Source: Eledone cirrhosa (Eukaryota). From it: a stretch of 64,000 nucleotides of DNA. A program made the translations under genes and the position numbers. Shown here one piece after another: positions 22,690 through 61,640 of the stretch. The notes beneath the pieces are model-generated. The model was not told the DNA's origin and did not search any database. It saw nothing but the letters and a program-made list of their open reading frames with translations. How positions within the stretch are numbered: position 1 is the first letter of the stretch; each line of letters starts with the position of its first letter. The DNA lies in assembly GCA_964016885.1 (NCBI GenBank), contig OZ024749.1, positions 54,374,001 to 54,438,000 of the forward strand, read 5' to 3'.

Positions 22690-26398
<3,709 letters not shown>

Positions 26399-40909: not shown

Positions 40910-41648
40910 TATACATACACACACACACATATATATATATTATACATACACACACACACATATATATTATACACACACACACGCAATTCAAATACAGGTA
41001 TGTACAACATTCCCACAGACATTAAATATGACATATGTAACACACACATAACCCAGTTGTCTACACTCACACATACATAATTCAAATACACACCCACACA
41101 TTTACACACAAGTAATCCAATTATCCACACACACACATACACACACACACGTACCCCAATTGCCCCCCCCCCCCTACACACAAACGTAATCCAGTTGTCC
41201 ACATACAACACAGGGGGGAAAAAAATCAATATAAACACACACACCCACACACACTCACAGACACACAGCGTCACACACTCACACACAGTCACACAGAGTC
41301 ACACACACTCACACACACAATCTCACACACACACACACACACAACAAAGTTTTGTGTCTGTTTCAACAGAAATATTAAAAAATATAAGAAAAGAAAAAAA
41401 GAAAAAAGAGGAAGAAAACTAAGGAAAACTAGAAAAAAGTGAAATGTAAGCCGTGAGTGGGGAATGGCACCTGAGATGACAGGTGAGACCAGGTGAGAGA
41501 GAGAGAGAGAGAGAGAATATAGTAATCCAGGTGAGGGAGAGAGTAGAGTCGTATAGTCCAGGTGAGAGAGAGAGAATATAGTAGTCCAAGTGAGAGAGAG
41601 AGAATATAGTAGTCCAGGTGAGAGAGAGAGATAGACAGAGAATATAGT

Positions 41649-44580
41649 AGTGTGGTCCAGGTGAGACTGGGGGAATAGTGTGGTCCAGGTGAGACTGGGG
41701 GAATATAATAGTGTGGTCCAGGTGAGACTGCGGGGATATAATAGTGTGGTCCAGGTGAGACTGGGGGAATAGTGTGGTCCAGGTGAGACTGCGGGAATAT
41801 AATAGTGTGGTCCAGGTGAGACTGGGGGAATAGTGTGGTCCAGGTGAGACTGGGGAAATATAATAGTGTGGTCCAGGTGAGACCGGGGGAATAGTGTGGT
41901 CCAGGTGAGACTGGGGGAATAGTGTGGTCCAGGTGAGACTGGGGGAATATAATAGTGTGGTCCAGGTGAGACCGGGGGAATAGTGTGGTCCAGGTGAGAC
42001 TGGGGGAATATAATAGTGTGGTCCAGGTGAGACCGGGGGAATAGTGTGGTCCAGGTGAGACTGGGGGAATATAATAGTGTGGTCCAGGTGAGACCGGGGG
42101 AATAGTGTGGTCCAGGTGTGACCGGGGGAATAGTGTGGTCCAGGTGAGACTGGGGGAATATAATAGTGTGGTCCAGGTGAGACCGGGGGAATAGTGTGGT
42201 CCAGGTGAGACTGGGGTAATAGTGTGGTCCAGGTGAGACCGGGGGAATAGTGTGGTCCAGGTGAGACTGGGGGAATATAATAGTGTGGTCCAGGTGAGAC
42301 CGGGGGAATAGTGTGGTCCAGGTGAGAGCGGGGGAATAGTGTGGTCCAGGTGAGACTGGGGGAATATAATAGTGTGGTCCAGGTGAGACCGGGGGAATAG
42401 TGTGGTCCAGGTGAGACTGGGGGAATAGTGTGGTCCAGGTGAGACTGCGGGAATATAATAGTGTGGTCCAGGTGAGACTGCGGGAATATAATAGTGTGGT
42501 CCAGGTGAGACCGGGGGAATAGTGTGGTCCAGGTGAGACTGGGGGAATAGTGTGGTCCAGGTGAGACTGGGGGAATAGTGTGGTCCAGGTGAGACCGGGG
42601 GAATAGTGTGGTCCAGGTGAGACTGCGGGAATATAATAGTGTGGTCCAGGTGAGACTGGGGGAATAGTGTGGTCCAGGTGAGACTGCGGGAATAGTGTGG
42701 TCCAGGTGAGACTGGGGGAATATAATAGTGTGGTCCAGGTGAGACCGGGGGAATAGTGTGGTCCAGGTGAGACTGCGGGAATAGTGTGGTCCAGGTGAGA
42801 CTGGGGGAATATAATAGTGTGGTCCAGGTGAGACCGGGGGAATAGTGTGGTCCAGGTGAGACTGGGGGAATAGTGTGGTCCAGGTGATACTGGGGGAATA
42901 TAATAGTGTGGTCCAGGTGAGACCGGGGGAATAGTGTGGTCCAGGTGAGACTGGGGGAATATAATAGTGTGGTCCAGGTGAGACCGGGGGAATAGTGTGG
43001 TCCAGGTGAGACTGGGGGAATATAATAGTGTGGTCCAGGTGAGACCGGGGGAATAGTGTGGTCCAGGTGAGACTGGGGTAATAGTGTGGTCCAGGTGAGA
43101 CCGGGGGAATAGTGTGGTCCAGGTGAGACTGGGGGAATATAATAGTGTGGTCCAGGTGAGACCGGGGGAATAGTGTGGTCCAGGTGAGACCGGGGGAATA
43201 GTGTGGTCCAGGTGAGACTGGGGGAATATAATAGTGTGGTCCAGGTGAGACCGGGGGAATAGTGTGGTCCAGGTGAGACCGGGGGAATAGTGTGGTCCAG
43301 GTGAGACTGGGGGAATATAATAGTGTGGTCCAGGTGAGACCGGGTGAATAGTGTGGTCCAGGTGAGACTGGGGGAATAGTGTGGTCCAGGTGAGACTGCG
43401 GGAATATAATAGTGTGGTCCAGGTGAGACTGCGGGAATATAATAGTGTGGTCCAGGTGAGACCGGGGGAATAGTGTGGTCCAGGTGAGACTGGGGGAATA
43501 GTGTGGTCCAGGTGAGACCGGGGGAATAGTGTGGTCCAGGTGAGACTGCGGGAATATAATAGTGTGGTCCAGGTGAGACTGGGGGAATAGTGTGGTCCAG
43601 GTGAGACTGCGGGAATATAATAGTGTGGTCCAGGTGAGACTGGGGGAATAGTGTGGTCCAGGTGAGACTGGGGGAATATAATAGTGTGGTCCAGGTGAGA
43701 CCGGGGGAATATAATAGTGTGGTTCAGGTGAGACCGGGGGAATAGTGTGGTCCAGGTGAGACTGCGGGAATATAATAGTGTGGTCCAGGTGAGACTGGGG
43801 GAATAGTGTGGTCCAGGTGAGACTGGGGGAATATAATAGTGTGGTCCAGGTGAGACTGGGGGAATAGTGTGGTCCAGGTGAGACTGGGGGAATATAATAG
43901 TGTGGTCCAGGTGAGACTGGGGGAATAGTGTGGTCCAGGTGAGACTGGGGGAATAGTGTGGTCCAGGTGAGACTGCGGGAATATAATAGTGTGGTCCAGG
44001 TGAGACTGCGGGAATATAATAGTGTGGTCCAGGTGAGACCGGGGGAATAGTGTGGTCCAGGTGAGACCGGGGGAATAGTGTGGTCCAGGTGAGACCGGGG
44101 GAATAGTGTGGTCCAGGTGAGACTGCGGGAATATAATAGTGTGGTCCAGGTGAGACTGGGGGAATAGTGTGGTCCAGGTGAGACTGCGGGAATATAATAG
44201 TGTGGTCCAGGTGAGACTGGGGGAATAGTGTGGTCCAGGTGAGACTGGGGGAATATAATAGTGTGGTCCAGGTGAGACCGGGGGAATATAATAGTGTGGT
44301 CCAGGTGAGACCGGGGGAATAGTGTGGTCCAGGTGAGACTGCGGGAATATAATAGTGTGGTCCAGGTGAGACTGGGGGAATATAATAGTGTGGTCCAGGT
44401 GAGACTGGGGGAATAGTGTGGTCCAGGTGAGACTGGGGGAATATAATAGTGTGGTCCAGGTGAGACTGGGGGAATAGTGTGGTCCAGGTGAGACTGGGGG
44501 AATAGTGTGGTCCAGGTGAGACTGGGGGAATAGTGTGGTCCAGGTGAGACTGCGGGAATATAATAGTGTGGTCCAGGTGA
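41649..44580. repeat. 28/33-bp minisatellite, roughly 95 units
   Basis: Unit agtgtggtccaggtgagac(t/c)g(g/c)gggaat with optional ataat. Degenerate (GA)n-containing monomers flank it at 41480-41648 and 44580-45020. Confidence 0.97.
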
Positions 44581-52182: not shown

Positions 52183-52237
<55 letters not shown>

Positions 52238-52473
52238 AGTATGCATGTATACGTACATACATATATGTATACAGACGTACAGTAGCATGCACATATATAT
52301 ATATATATACACATATATATACATATGCATACAGGTACACATACATATATGCACGTATCAGTTTAGCGGCGCTAACGTCGCTTTGTTCGTTTGTAAACAA
52401 ACTGAACAGCCTGAATTTATGCCATACGGTGTTAAGGCAACCACGTCACCTTTTTGTTCAACACTGACACAGG

Positions 52474-52518
52474 AACGATGTACTAGTTTCAAGCTTGTTA
52501 GCTATCATCAGCACCGTT
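52474..52518 (-). ncRNA. Type I hammerhead ribozyme motif, copy 1
   Basis: Minus strand AACGGTG-CTGATGA-T-AGCT-AACA-AGCT-T-GAAA-C-TA-GTA^-CATCGTT. Confidence 0.8.
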
Positions 52519-52939
52519 TACCCATCTGCCAGATAGTTGAACGTTCGAAAGTATATACTTTCCTTATGAAAATTAACGGCTGAGCAGCCTAATTTGCATA
52601 TTGAGTGAGTTAAATCGGTCAGGCATACCGAAAACGATAAATTGAAACAAAATGAAAACGAAATTTCATTTCTCACTCTTAGTATGGCACTTACTTAAAT
52701 GTAAGTATGCATGTATACGTACATACATATATGTATACAGACGTACAGTAGCATGCACATATATATATATATATACACATATATATACATATGCATACAG
52801 GTACACATACATATATGCACGTATCAGTTTAGCGGCGCTAACGTCGCTTTGTTCGTTTGTAAACAAACTGAACAGCCTGAATTTATGCCATACGGTGTTA
52901 AGGCAACCACGTCACCTTTTTGTTCAACACTGACACAGG

Positions 52940-52984
52940 AACGATGTACTAGTTTCAAGCTTGTTAGCTATCATCAGCACCGTT
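52940..52984 (-). ncRNA. Type I hammerhead ribozyme motif, copy 2
   Basis: Identical motif, 466 bp further. Confidence 0.8.
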
Positions 52985-53407
52985 TACCCATCTGCCAGAT
53001 AGTTGAACGTTCGAAAGTATATACTTTCCTTATGAAAATTAACGGCTGAGCAGCCTAATTTGCATATTGAGTGAGTTAAATCGGTCAGGCATACCGAAAA
53101 CGATAAATTGAAACAAAATGAAAACGAAATTTCATTTCTCACTCTTAGTATGGCACTTACTTAAATGTAAGTATGCATGTATACGTACATACATATATGT
53201 ATACAGACGTACAGTAGCATGCACATATATATATATATATATACACATATATATACATATGCATACAGGTACACATACATATATGCACGTATCAGTTTAG
53301 CGGCGCTAACGTCGCTTTGTTCGTTTGTAAACAAACTGAACAGCCTGAATTTATGCCATACGGTGTTAAGGCAACCACGTCACCTTTTTGTTCAACACTG
53401 ACACAGG

Positions 53408-53452
53408 AACGATGTACTAGTTTCAAGCTTGTTAGCTATCATCAGCACCGTT
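53408..53452 (-). ncRNA. Type I hammerhead ribozyme motif, copy 3
   Basis: Identical motif, 468 bp further. Confidence 0.8.
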
Positions 53453-53873
53453 TACCCATCTGCCAGATAGTTGAACGTTCGAAAGTATATACTTTCCTTA
53501 TGAAAATTAACGGCTGAGCAGCCTAATTTGCATATTGAGTGAGTTAAATCGGTCAGGCATACCGAAAACGATAAATTGAAACAAAATGAAAACGAAATTT
53601 CATTTCTCACTCTTAGTATGGCACTTACTTAAATGTAAGTATGCATGTATACGTACATACATATATGTATACAGACGTACAGTAGCATGCACATATATAT
53701 ATATATATACACATATATATACATATGCATACAGGTACACATACATATATGCACGTATCAGTTTAGCGGCGCTAACGTCGCTTTGTTCGTTTGTAAACAA
53801 ACTGAACAGCCTGAATTTATGCCATACGGTGTTAAGGCAACCACGTCACCTTTTTGTTCAACACTGACACAGG

Positions 53874-53918
53874 AACGATGTACTAGTTTCAAGCTTGTTA
53901 GCTATCATCAGCACCGTT
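53874..53918 (-). ncRNA. Type I hammerhead ribozyme motif, copy 4
   Basis: Identical motif, 466 bp further. Confidence 0.8.
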
Positions 53919-54339
53919 TACCCATCTGCCAGATAGTTGAACGTTCGAAAGTATATACTTTCCTTATGAAAATTAACGGCTGAGCAGCCTAATTTGCATA
54001 TTGAGTGAGTTAAATCGGTCAGGCATACCGAAAACGATAAATTGAAACAAAATGAAAACGAAATTTCATTTCTCACTCTTAGTATGGCACTTACTTAAAT
54101 GTAAGTATGCATGTATACGTACATACATATATGTATACAGACGTACAGTAGCATGCACATATATATATATATATACACATATATATACATATGCATACAG
54201 GTACACATACATATATGCACGTATCAGTTTAGCGGCGCTAACGTCGCTTTGTTCGTTTGTAAACAAACTGAACAGCCTGAATTTATGCCATACGGTGTTA
54301 AGGCAACCACGTCACCTTTTTGTTCAACACTGACACAGG

Positions 54340-54384
54340 AACGATGTACTAGTTTCAAGCTTGTTAGCTATCATCAGCACCGTT
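54340..54384 (-). ncRNA. Type I hammerhead ribozyme motif, copy 5
   Basis: Identical motif, 466 bp further. Confidence 0.8.
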
Positions 54385-54574
54385 TACCCATCTGCCAGAT
54401 AGTTGAACGTTCGAAAGTATATACTTTCCTTATGAAAATTAACGGCTGAGCAGCCTAATTTGCATATTGAGTGAGTTAAATCGGTCAGGCATACCGAAAA
54501 CGATAAATTGAAACAAAATGAAAACGAAATTTCATTTCTCACTCTTAGTATGGCACTTACTTAAATGTAAGTAT

Positions 54575-54618
54575 ACGGTGCTGATGATAGCTAACAAGCT
54601 TGAAACTAGTACATCGTT
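54575..54618 (+). ncRNA. Type I hammerhead ribozyme motif, copy 6 (at the inversion junction; lacks the extended 5' stem)
   Basis: ACGGTG-CTGATGA(54581-87)-TAGCTAACAAGCTT-GAAA(54602-05)-CTAGTA^(54611)-CATCGTT. Confidence 0.78.
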
Positions 54619-55039
54619 CCTGTGTCAGTGTTGAACAAAAAGGTGACGTGGTTGCCTTAACACCGTATGGCATAAATTCAGGCTGTTCAGTTTGTTTACA
54701 AACGAACAAAGCGACGTTAGCGCCGCTAAACTGATACGTGCATATATGTATGTGTACCTGTATGCATATGTATATATATGTGTATATATATATATATATG
54801 TGCATGCTACTGTACGTCTGTATACATATATGTATGTACGTATACATGCATACTTACATTTAAGTAAGTGCCATACTAAGAGTGAGAAATGAAATTTCGT
54901 TTTCATTTTGTTTCAATTTATCGTTTTCGGTATGCCTGACCGATTTAACTCACTCAATATGCAAATTAGGCTGCTCAGCCGTTAATTTTCATAAGGAAAG
55001 TATATACTTTCGAACGTTCAACTATCTGGCAGATGGGTA

Positions 55040-55084
55040 AACGGTGCTGATGATAGCTAACAAGCTTGAAACTAGTACATCGTT
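55040..55084 (+). ncRNA. Type I hammerhead ribozyme motif, copy 7
   Basis: Complete motif with the extended stem I flanks. Confidence 0.8.
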
Positions 55085-55505
55085 CCTGTGTCAGTGTTGA
55101 ACAAAAAGGTGACGTGGTTGCCTTAACACCGTATGGCATAAATTCAGGCTGTTCAGTTTGTTTACAAACGAACAAAGCGACGTTAGCGCCGCTAAACTGA
55201 TACGTGCATATATGTATGTGTACCTGTATGCATATGTATATATATGTGTATATATATATATATATGTGCATGCTACTGTACGTCTGTATACATATATGTA
55301 TGTACGTATACATGCATACTTACATTTAAGTAAGTGCCATACTAAGAGTGAGAAATGAAATTTCGTTTTCATTTTGTTTCAATTTATCGTTTTCGGTATG
55401 CCTGACCGATTTAACTCACTCAATATGCAAATTAGGCTGCTCAGCCGTTAATTTTCATAAGGAAAGTATATACTTTCGAACGTTCAACTATCTGGCAGAT
55501 GGGTA

Positions 55506-55550
55506 AACGGTGCTGATGATAGCTAACAAGCTTGAAACTAGTACATCGTT
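55506..55550 (+). ncRNA. Type I hammerhead ribozyme motif, copy 8
   Basis: Complete motif, 466 bp further. Confidence 0.8.
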
Positions 55551-55847
55551 CCTGTGTCAGTGTTGAACAAAAAGGTGACGTGGTTGCCTTAACACCGTAT
55601 GGCATAAATTCAGGCTGTTCAGTTTGTTTACAAACGAACAAAGCGACGTTAGCGCCGCTAAACTGATACGTGCATATATGTATGTGTACCTGTATGCATA
55701 TGTATATATATGTGTATATATATATATATATGTGCATGCTACTGTACGTCTGTATACATATATGTATGTACGTATACATGCATACTTACATTTAAGTAAG
55801 TGCCATACTAAGAGTGAGAAATGAAATTTCGTTTTCATTTTGTTTCA

Positions 55848-55887
<40 letters not shown>

Positions 55888-60473: not shown

Positions 60474-61407
60474 CTACGGCGGGTAAAATTCCCGAGATCC
60501 ATGGACGAGTTCTCTCCAGCGGTCTCTGTCCCTCATTATCGCTGCCATATCCTGCATCTCCAACAGACCAGTGTCTGTCCTTAGGGCATCAACATATGTT
60601 AACCTTGGTCTTCCTCTTCTAGTGTGTCCATGTAGGGGCTCCCAAAGGAGCACTGAGTGCAATGTCAACTCTGGATGTCGGTGAGCATGTCCAGCCAACC
60701 TCAGTCTCCTCTGTGTCACTTTTGAGCTGACTTTTGGGATGCTCCCATACAGCTCTGAGTTTTTCATCCTCAGTGTATACTGATTAATGTTCAGAGCCAT
60801 CCTCAGCATTCTCGTGTAGCACCTATCCACCATCTGAGTGAGTTTCTTGGTCAGTATCCAAGTCTCAGACCCATACAGCAGCACAGACTCCACTACAGCA
60901 ATGAAGAGGCGGATTTTCAGGTCTCTACGAAGGTCCGACTTCCACACCGATCTCAAGCTGTGGCACGCCGCCCAGGCCTTGCTCTTCCTCTCAACCACAT
61001 CATCCTCCGTATTCCCAATCTTTGCTCCCAAATACAGGAAGTCCTCAACCAATTCCAGCGGCTTCCCGCCTACATTAGTGATCCCCTCTGGCTTCTCAAC
61101 ATTCTCTACCAGATATTTTGTTTTAGTCTCATTCATTCTCAGCCCCACACTCATCGACACAGTCTCAACCTCCCGCATCAAATCCTCTGTCACCTTCACT
61201 GTATTTGTCACCAAAACTACACCTGATGGGATGACAGAGTTCTTTGAGATACTGGCTGGAGTGCTCCAGGGAGATACATTGGCTCCCTACCTTTTTATCA
61301 TCGTAGTGGACTATTATATGCGCCTTGCACTGGAGAAACACCAGGACTCTGGCTTTACTGTAGCACCGGCTCAGAGCAGGAGAGTTGGGGCGAAAAAGGT
61401 ATCGGAT
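60474..61407 (-). mobile_element. 5'-truncated RTE-clade LINE with an inverted 5' segment, inserted in (TA)n
   Basis: 60474-61214 (-) encodes the RT C-terminal half (GLRMNETKTK, FLYLG, ESVLLYGSETW, RRLRLAGH, RGRPRLTY). About 61215-61407 (+) encodes the preceding TPDG...GVLQGDTLAPYLF...KKVSD. The FADD motif expected between them is missing. Confidence 0.9.
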
Positions 61408-61458
61408 ATATATATATATATATATTGGAAAATGTGTGAGATCCTTGGTACAGTTAGG

Positions 61459-61640
61459 TATATTTGAAAAAAAGGAAAAGAATGACTTCACTTGTAGTTC
61501 TAAATAATTTGATATAGTTTTATAATATTATGAGTTGGTAGAACTACTAGTTCTACCAACTCATATTATATATTATAAAATTAGATCAAATTATTTAGAA
61601 CTACAAGTGAAGTCATTCTTTTCCTTTTTTTAAATATATA
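61459..61640. repeat. Near-perfect palindrome, arms about 85-90 bp
   Basis: aaaggaaaagaatgacttcacttgtagttctaaataatttgat...gagttggtagaacta-c-tagttctaccaactc...atcaaattatttagaactacaagtgaagtcattcttttccttt. Confidence 0.9.

What the first reader, a model, noticed from the sequence alone, without database searches (positions are those of the whole stretch)
55005..55112. Hammerhead sits in a long rod-like stem, and its palindromic stem III suggests dimeric cleavage
Seen: stem I extends beyond the core. GGG/CCU follows a UA bulge, then CUGGCA/UGUCAG, GUUCAAC/GUUGAAC and ACUUU/AAGGU, about 28 bp in all around the ribozyme. This makes a chance CUGAUGA...GAAA match unlikely. Stem III is only 2 bp with the self-complementary sequence ACUAGU. 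Established: hammerheads with such unstable stem III (newt satellite 2, ASBVd plus strand, Penelope-type minimal motifs) cleave as double hammerheads. Inference: cleavage needs two tandem units, so multimers are processed while monomer circles stay stable.
Basis: partly seen in the sequence, partly recalled or inferred. Interest (0 to 1): 0.75.

Follow-up and report, generated by a model that had tools for sequence, protein, structure and literature searches.

The report
Mollusc retrozyme with dimer-type hammerhead ribozyme
This is the hammerhead-ribozyme motif of a 466-base non-coding repeat whose core occurs more than 23,000 times in a mollusc genome; it is predicted to cut itself only in pairs, as already known for newt and axolotl repeats, and its insertion ends show the pattern of Penelope-like jumping genes, which likely spread it.

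Summary
The hammerhead is real: a type I core with 6-bp stem I, 4-bp stem II over a U·U pair, and stem III as one A-U pair plus a palindromic CUAG loop. It sits in each unit of a 466-bp non-coding repeat: 8 cores in this window, at least 23,730 genome-wide. The stem extension is about 23 bp, not 28. The outer ACUUU/AAGGU helix is an artefact of the excerpt, and the whole unit folds branched, not rod-like. Folding supports dimer cleavage: the double hammerhead lies 0.9 kcal/mol above the free minimum, two single ones 16.9. That idea is in print (PMC4209133, PMC7229834), and no cleavage was measured. The element is a non-LTR retrozyme. New here is its insertion anatomy: two divergent arms, two fixed 3' ends about 59 nt apart (one of each in 23 of 30 junctions), and (TA)n targets. 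This matches the two-site priming shown for a Penelope-like element. The exact mobiliser was not found. Verdict: new member of a known kind, with useful evidence on how retrozymes move.

The parts
55041..55083 (+). Type I hammerhead core: stem I 55041-55046 with 55078-55083, CUGAUGA 55047-55053, stem II 55055-55066 over U·U, GAAA 55068-55071, UA, predicted cleavage between 55077 and 55078
   Evidence: sequence; pairing across copies
55071..55076 (+). Stem III: A-U pair around palindromic CUAG loop (ACUAGU); would form a 6-bp duplex between two hammerheads
   Evidence: conservation
55016..55037 (+). 5' arm of stem I extension (GUUCAAC, CUGGCA, UGGG)
55085..55102 (+). 3' arm of stem I extension (CCUG, UGUCAG, GUUGAAC)
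54996..55011 (+).
   Evidence: pair probability 0.98
55106..55124 (+).
55078..55543 (+). One 466-bp repeat unit, from predicted cut to predicted cut; non-coding; holds an AT-rich microsatellite hairpin
54575..55853 (+). Forward arm of the insertion: 3 hammerhead cores (54581, 55047, 55513), 5'-truncated at the start of stem I, ends at the long 3' end (unit position about 310)
52232..54574 (-). Inverted arm: 5 hammerhead cores (54377, 53911, 53445, 52977, 52511), ends at the short 3' end (unit position about 248-251)
55795..55853 (+). [quoted passage not shown]
52186..52233 (.). (TA)n target tract, left flank
55851..55884 (.). (TA)n target tract, right flank
54959..54966 (+). ATGCAAAT (octamer motif, name recalled), one per unit; possible internal promoter element, untested
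   Evidence: 116 of 127 anchored units

Best explanation
It is the type I hammerhead motif of a high-copy 466-bp non-LTR retrozyme, predicted to cleave as a double hammerhead in tandem transcripts, which would release monomers that likely circularise and are likely copied back into (TA)n sites by a Penelope-like reverse transcriptase/endonuclease. Shown: the motif, the unit, the copy number, the conserved 23-bp stem and the insertion anatomy. Predicted: a lone hammerhead misfolds (UGCUG pairs with UAGUA), while two neighbours swap stem I and pair ACUAGU with ACUAGU. Inferred: in that swapped fold the 23-bp stem closes each unit on itself, the same pairing as in the circle, so double cleavage would give a monomer with its two ends held together for a host ligase. 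Cleavage in the single fold would leave neighbouring units clamped together by about 23 bp. Inferred: the retroelement protein cuts both strands of a TA tract and starts cDNA at two fixed internal sites (about 250 and 310). It then runs round one monomer-derived template several times, and the two truncated cDNAs are joined head to head.
For: Energies: double +0.9, two singles +16.9, single in circle +7.5 kcal/mol; +0.2 and +16.7 in subfamily B; alternative pairing 0.86 in the circle. Stem I pair 433:3 is U·G in 18, A-U in 11, G·U in 10, C-G in 1 and unpaired in 2 of 42 copies. Loop III varies in 163 copies against 1,122 for loop II; among the first 100 listed, loop II variants were repeated AAGA/AATA. 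Changing both ends of the loop gives 19 hits in all. In 50 GIY-YIG loci, 37 of 41 hammerhead-like motifs with a 4-nt loop III are palindromic: CCGG, GUAC and one CUAG retrozyme copy. Ends: 85 of 98 arms from 54 loci stop at one of two sites, and 76 of those 85 run into (TA)n. Of 30 divergent junctions, 23 have one long and one short end, 3 short/short, 0 long/long, 4 have another end. Coding Penelope-like elements in this genome show the same two ends and TA target. The two-site priming that makes the tail was shown in vitro in PMC11167929. Template: 191 of 193 anchors read through the cleavage site (some loci overlap). Fifteen substitutions private to one locus are carried by every unit covering the site, in 10 of 54 loci, 10 of them on both arms.
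Against: No cleavage, RNA or circle was observed. Nearest-neighbour energies omit tertiary contacts, which could rescue a single hammerhead. Stem I would form locally during transcription (-27.4 kcal/mol), 466 nt before the partner appears, so the swap may be kinetically slow. U·U at the base of stem II weakens the motif; the axolotl motif with that feature cleaved 22% in one hour as a monomer (PMC7229834). Covariation is thin: 4 pairs with two-sided change against 6.1 in shuffles, pair 423:11 is mismatched in 10 of 42, and the copies are close kin. Read-through of the cleavage site also fits uncleaved multimers, the main substrate for the anole element (PMC11167929). No coding element sharing sequence with the unit was found in 50 GIY-YIG loci. 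Against clean single-template copying, 130 private substitutions sit in one unit only and 11 in some units; these are most likely later mutation.
Confidence: 0.68

Rival explanations
1. Same element and mobiliser, but the hammerhead plays no needed part in transposition. Uncleaved read-through multimers are the template, as for the anole Penelope-like element, and the hammerhead is weak, protein-assisted or vestigial.
For: PMC11167929: hammerhead mutants did not affect insertion, unprocessed RNA was the main substrate, and cleavage needed protein. Arms almost never begin at the cleavage site. In the 2026 preprint 8 of 9 Xenopus dimer constructs showed no cleavage.
Against: Core and palindrome stay fixed between two subfamilies of 10,718 and 13,012 cores while N7 and loop II change. 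Locus-private variants shared by all units need a one-unit bottleneck.
Confidence: 0.17
2. The hammerhead cleaves well as a monomer through loop I-loop II contacts, like coral and mussel retrozymes, and the palindrome is incidental.
For: PMC7229834 reports efficient monomer cleavage for invertebrate retrozymes; this genome is molluscan. The stem I internal loop and loop II are kept in register across copies.
Against: Stem III has one pair, the design that needs dimers in the axolotl. The A-U pair has probability 0.0 in the monomer. Palindromic loops of different sequence recur in other families of this genome.
Confidence: 0.1
3. The unit is only the terminal repeat of a coding Penelope-like element, seen as truncated copies, and not an element of its own.
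For: Tail, inverted arm and TA target are all hallmarks of those elements (PMC8557442). An earlier scan finding in another genome turned out this way (e1-7908855, unchecked).
Against: Arms hold up to five or six complete units head to tail with no ORF between them. Of 123 retrozyme loci plus the window, 4 have Penelope-like coding hits. The one strong hit (L083), read base by base, is an insertion into that element's terminal TA tract; the other three were not inspected.
Confidence: 0.05

Closest known systems
Metazoan non-LTR retrozymes, especially axolotl Rtz331/Rtz353 and newt satellite 2 (PMC7229834)
   Same: Tandem non-coding units with one type I hammerhead each, low GC, many thousands of dispersed copies. 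One-pair stem III with palindromic tetraloop as in HHR_Amex1; U·U at the base of stem II as in HHR_Amex2.
   Different: Mollusc host; both weakening features in one motif; unit 466 bp with length-variable AT hairpin; 23-bp stem I; two-armed insertions with a tail, not found in the retrozyme texts I searched.
Mytilus galloprovincialis retrozyme (PMC7229834)
   Same: Molluscan tandem repeat with type I hammerhead; unit size of the same order (350-390 bp).
   Different: About 5,000 motifs there against at least 23,730 here; it cleaves as a single motif at about 0.1 per minute. Its stem III is in figures I could not see.
Endonuclease-positive Penelope-like elements, Neptune type (PMC8557442) and Poseidon PAc (PMC11167929)
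   Same: Inverted 5'-truncated copy at the 5' end, tail at one end only, AT-rich or (TA)n targets, hammerhead near the 3' end, palindromic loop III.
   Different: No reverse transcriptase or endonuclease ORF; tail 59 nt against 30-40 nt quoted (about 45-65 nt in this genome's own coding elements, read by eye); no shared sequence found.
Double hammerheads of avocado sunblotch viroid and newt RNA (Forster 1988, cited in PMC4209133; original not read)
   Same: Unstable stem III rescued by pairing of two motifs.
   Different: Genome-encoded; hammerhead on one strand only; branched fold; no sign of an infectious RNA.

Membership tests
Type I hammerhead ribozyme | Core CUGANGA, GAAA, UH in order | tested here: met
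Type I hammerhead ribozyme | Stem I open-ended, about 6 bp; stem II about 4 bp | tested here: met
   96.4% and 95.2% paired in 42 copies
Type I hammerhead ribozyme | G-C pair at the base of stem II | tested here: not met
   U·U; a known natural variant (HHR_Amex2, PMC7229834), so not disqualifying
Type I hammerhead ribozyme | Rfam hammerhead model at gathering score | tested here: not met
   none; HH9 18.5 bits against 52
Type I hammerhead ribozyme | Loop I-loop II tertiary contact | not tested
   internal loop and loop II present; no modelling done
Type I hammerhead ribozyme | Self-cleavage after UH | not testable with these tools
   needs in vitro assay
Dimer-dependent hammerhead | 1-2 bp stem III with palindromic loop; second copy in tandem | tested here: met
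Dimer-dependent hammerhead | Dimer cleaves much faster than monomer | not testable with these tools
   energies only
Non-LTR retrozyme | Tandem units of a few hundred bp, one type I hammerhead each | tested here: met
   466 bp
Non-LTR retrozyme | Non-coding, low GC | tested here: met
   no ORF of 120 aa or more in 52232-55853; GC 0.35 in the two bins covering it
Non-LTR retrozyme | Dispersed, high copy | tested here: met
   first 100 listed cores fall in 53 clusters over 68 Mb; 10,718 plus 13,012 cores
Non-LTR retrozyme | Expressed as linear and circular monomer RNA | not testable with these tools
   no run on record as RNA was offered
Non-LTR retrozyme | Target-site duplication | tested here: inconclusive
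   both flanks are (TA)n
Autonomous Penelope-like element | ORF with reverse transcriptase and GIY-YIG endonuclease | tested here: not met
Autonomous Penelope-like element | Inverted 5'-truncated copy and one-sided tail | tested here: met
   23 of 30 divergent junctions long/short
Autonomous Penelope-like element | (TA)n insertion bias (Neptune, Naiad) | tested here: met
   76 of 85 fixed ends
Viroid-like rod RNA | Rod-like fold and ribozymes in both polarities | tested here: not met
   branched fold; descriptor matches plus strand only

The most novel reading that the evidence does not exclude
The long stem I and the palindromic stem III together form a circle-making switch: only the double hammerhead leaves each unit folded on itself, ready for ligation. 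A Neptune-type protein then primes twice on one such circle, at two fixed sites 59 nt apart, and rolls round it from both ends of a break in (TA)n. The thousands of young two-armed insertions would then be the first direct genomic footprint of rolling-circle retrotransposition of an animal retrozyme by a Penelope-like enzyme, in a system that can be rebuilt in vitro.
Probability: 0.35. Interest if true: 0.68.

Novelty: new member of a known kind. Interest (0 to 1): 0.42.

Why it matters
The value lies in the surroundings. Which enzyme mobilises animal retrozymes has been argued from co-occurrence and shared sequence (PMC7229834; bioRxiv 10.64898/2026.07.22.740005). This family shows the two-site priming signature that was tied to a Penelope-like protein in vitro (PMC11167929), on a non-coding element, with young near-identical copies and long Neptune-type ORFs in the same genome. 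That makes the circle-template question directly testable. At 23,730 or more cores of units near 450 bp it is also a sizeable part of this genome's repeats.

Tried and rejected
Rfam gathering scan: nothing; microRNA-family hits at E-value level are the AT microsatellite. DNA search of the own genome returned nothing, even for the window itself, which the tool warns can happen for very common words; pattern searches replaced it. Outer helix ACUUU/AAGGU rejected. Pile-up of 5' ends at the cleavage site as a trace of cleavage in vivo: not seen. One arm starts there; three other apparent cases inspected start 10-17 nt upstream; the pile-up at position 131 is a microsatellite alignment artefact. 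Search for the coding partner: 50 of 150 listed GIY-YIG places read, none shares sequence with the unit beyond retrozyme copies lying in three of them; L083 is a nested insertion, not a chimera; seven look-alike cores elsewhere had no Penelope-like ORF. A propagated second palindrome within the family: not found. The cis-dimer test used the junction copy by mistake and was redone; only the 87-nt fragment results are used. Expression: no RNA holder listed. Four runs of unknown kind were laid: two hold a single near-identical contig over most of the unit at depth 7-10. Whether those are RNA could not be settled, so I draw nothing from it. Lunse 2017 was not held; I saw only its title in a reference list. 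PMC5785220 was the wrong paper.

Full report
Observation. It is a type I hammerhead: ACGGUG, CUGAUGA, U, AGCU-AACA-AGCU, U, GAAA, CUAG, UA, then CAUCGU. The 108-nt excerpt folds at -30.3 kcal/mol, z -2.46, with 5 of 200 shuffles as good. A hammerhead descriptor matched 0 of 20,000 shuffles of the unit, and only the plus strand of the real unit. Rfam gives nothing at gathering level and a weak HH9 match. Two corrections are needed. Stem III is one A-U pair around a CUAG loop, since two pairs would leave a 2-nt loop. The outer helix ACUUU/AAGGU forms only because the excerpt cuts off the true partners. In the circular unit its probability is 0.0, and each half lies in a local hairpin. The unit folds into a branched structure closed by about 23 bp.

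Context. The core is repeated every 466 bp: three copies on the plus strand and five on the minus strand, 99.6-100% identical. The arms diverge from a junction at about 54571-54575 and end in (TA)n tracts at 52186-52233 and 55851-55884. No ORF of 120 aa or more lies inside. The exact 31-nt core occurs 10,718 times in the 3.0-Gb assembly, with 0 for the control. A sister subfamily with loop AAUA, mostly CUGACGA, adds 13,012. The genome has 39 matches to the Pfam family Haemocyan_bet_s. That this marks a mollusc is my own knowledge; no finer taxon was tested.

Comparative structure. In 44 copies (42 distinct) from both subfamilies, stem I, stem II and the two extension blocks are 92.9-96.4% paired, and ACUUU/AAGGU 61%. 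Several rows carry a deletion or a truncation at the left end and are misaligned there. One stem I pair takes four forms (U·G 18, A-U 11, G·U 10, C-G 1). The covariation score beats 500 of 500 shuffles (0.123 against 0.099), but pairs with two-sided change are fewer than in shuffles (4 against 6.1). The copies are close kin, so this rests on few events.

Dimer question. For the 87-nt fragment the active monomer costs 8.8 kcal/mol over a misfold in which UGCUG pairs with UAGUA; the double hammerhead is -54.0 against -54.8 for two misfolded monomers. In a natural tandem pair the free minimum is -186.6, the double hammerhead -185.7 and two single hammerheads -169.7; in the circle one active hammerhead costs 7.5. 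Subfamily B gives -169.1, -168.9 and -152.4. Freeing the four loop III bases adds 163 copies, freeing loop II adds 1,122. No other palindrome has spread within the family (19 hits). In the 50 GIY-YIG loci fetched, 37 of 41 hammerhead-like motifs with a 4-nt loop III are palindromic, in three different sequences; the other 4 differ from CCGG by one base. These are predictions and conservation, not rates. The idea is published. PMC4209133 (passages read) describes the 1-2 bp helix III with palindromic loop, dimer rescue and protection of monomer circles. PMC7229834 (passages, sections 14 and 17) shows dimer dependence for the axolotl motifs, one with a single-pair helix III and one with U·U under helix II, and efficient monomer cleavage in coral and mussel. 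Its figures and supplements were not seen, so the mussel stem III could be closer to this one than I can tell.

A role for the long stem (inference). In the double-hammerhead fold, positions 1-25 of a unit pair with 405-435 of the same unit, as in the circle. Double cleavage would leave a monomer with its own ends together. In the single fold the stem joins neighbouring units, which would stay bound after a cut (-26.9 kcal/mol for the pair, against -10.7 and -1.0 apart). The same stability could trap the local misfold during transcription, so a protein may be needed.

Insertion anatomy. The first 100 listed cores form 53 clusters: 16 divergent, 1 convergent, 10 tandem, 26 single. All 53 were fetched and analysed with the window. 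Of 98 arms not at a locus edge, 46 end near unit position 310, 39 near 250 and 13 elsewhere; 41 of 46 and 35 of 39 run into (TA)n, against 3 of 13. Of 30 divergent junctions, 23 pair a long with a short end, 3 are short/short, none long/long, and 4 have another end. Subfamily B shows two ends too, near 220 and 270. PMC8557442 (passages) lists an inverted truncated copy, a one-sided tail and (TA)n bias as features of Penelope-like insertions. PMC11167929 (first two of four parts read) shows in vitro that such a protein cuts and extends both strands and starts at two internal sites, the tail being the sequence between them. This genome holds reverse-transcriptase/GIY-YIG ORFs up to 938 and 1,096 aa with a cysteine linker of the Neptune/Nematis type, read by eye. 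Their copies end at two sites in (TA)n in the same way. None of the 50 loci read shares sequence with the unit, so the partner is not identified.

Template. Arms read through the predicted cleavage site in 191 of 193 anchors, some from overlapping loci. Cleaved linear monomers are therefore not the usual template. Fifteen substitutions found in only one of 54 loci are carried by every unit covering the site, 10 of them on both arms; 130 are in one unit and 11 in some. All units of an insertion thus often descend from one unit, which a circle explains most simply. A homogeneous source array or repeated template jumping is not excluded.

What is in print. Searches: retrozyme/hammerhead/dimer, hammerhead ribozyme/octopus (13), cephalopod/hammerhead/ribozyme (57), Penelope-like/palindrome/dimer (41), internal initiation/tail (56), retrozyme/Penelope/inverted/tail/non-autonomous since 2020 (70). 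I found no description of this family, nor of tails or inverted arms in retrozymes. 'Inverted' is absent from PMC7229834; 'tail' is absent from the 2026 preprint, of which I read three of five parts. That preprint already argues the Penelope origin from distribution and homology in vertebrates. PMC6962438 (passage) counts 235 hammerhead-1 motifs in giant squid without analysis. Repeat libraries and subscription journals were not searchable, so the family may be catalogued as a repeat.

Verdict. Real hammerhead motif, likely dimer-dependent, in a new mollusc member of the non-LTR retrozymes. The insertion signature is the useful addition. Interest 0.42.

Noticed in passing
L084-L133 (GIY-YIG loci), e.g. 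L114, L121, L127, L130, L131: About four Neptune-type families carry hammerhead-like motifs with U3 and A8 in place of C3 and G8 (UUGANAA) and a palindromic CCGG loop III; one also has GCAA for GAAA. It looks like a compensatory swap of the 3-8 pair. Whether this is described was not checked.
   Followed up: partly
L113, L117, L118, L120, L125: A Neptune-type family with a canonical core, U·U under stem II and palindromic GUAC loop about 375 nt after the ORF; L125 is a two-armed insertion with one long and one short end.
   Followed up: partly
window 54959-54966 and each unit: ATGCAAAT is kept in 116 of 127 anchored units. Newt satellite 2 is reported to use an snRNA-type promoter (passage in PMC2220036); that such promoters use this octamer is recalled. 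The bases are also paired in the predicted RNA, so conservation may be structural.
   Followed up: partly
L119, L123, L127, L181, L094, L125: At least three further short hammerhead families with longer stem III, some in inverted pairs.
   Followed up: no
window 55200-55309 and each unit: An AT-rich microsatellite inside the unit folds into a long hairpin (24 plus 22 bp); spacing between cores runs from about 464 to 538 bp among insertions.
   Followed up: partly
L083:1-2607; L126:1900-3684: Retrozyme copies lie in the terminal (TA)n tract of coding Penelope-like elements.
   Followed up: yes
window 60474-61467, minus strand: Fragment that looks like a LINE reverse transcriptase C-terminus; only a weak DUF6451 hit.
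   Followed up: no
window 41648-44560: 28-bp minisatellite array of about 97 copies; long open frames there are products of the repeat.
   Followed up: no
L196:990-1535: A short tandem repeat of about 41 bp with CTGAAGA in most units ends in a hammerhead-like core.
   Followed up: no
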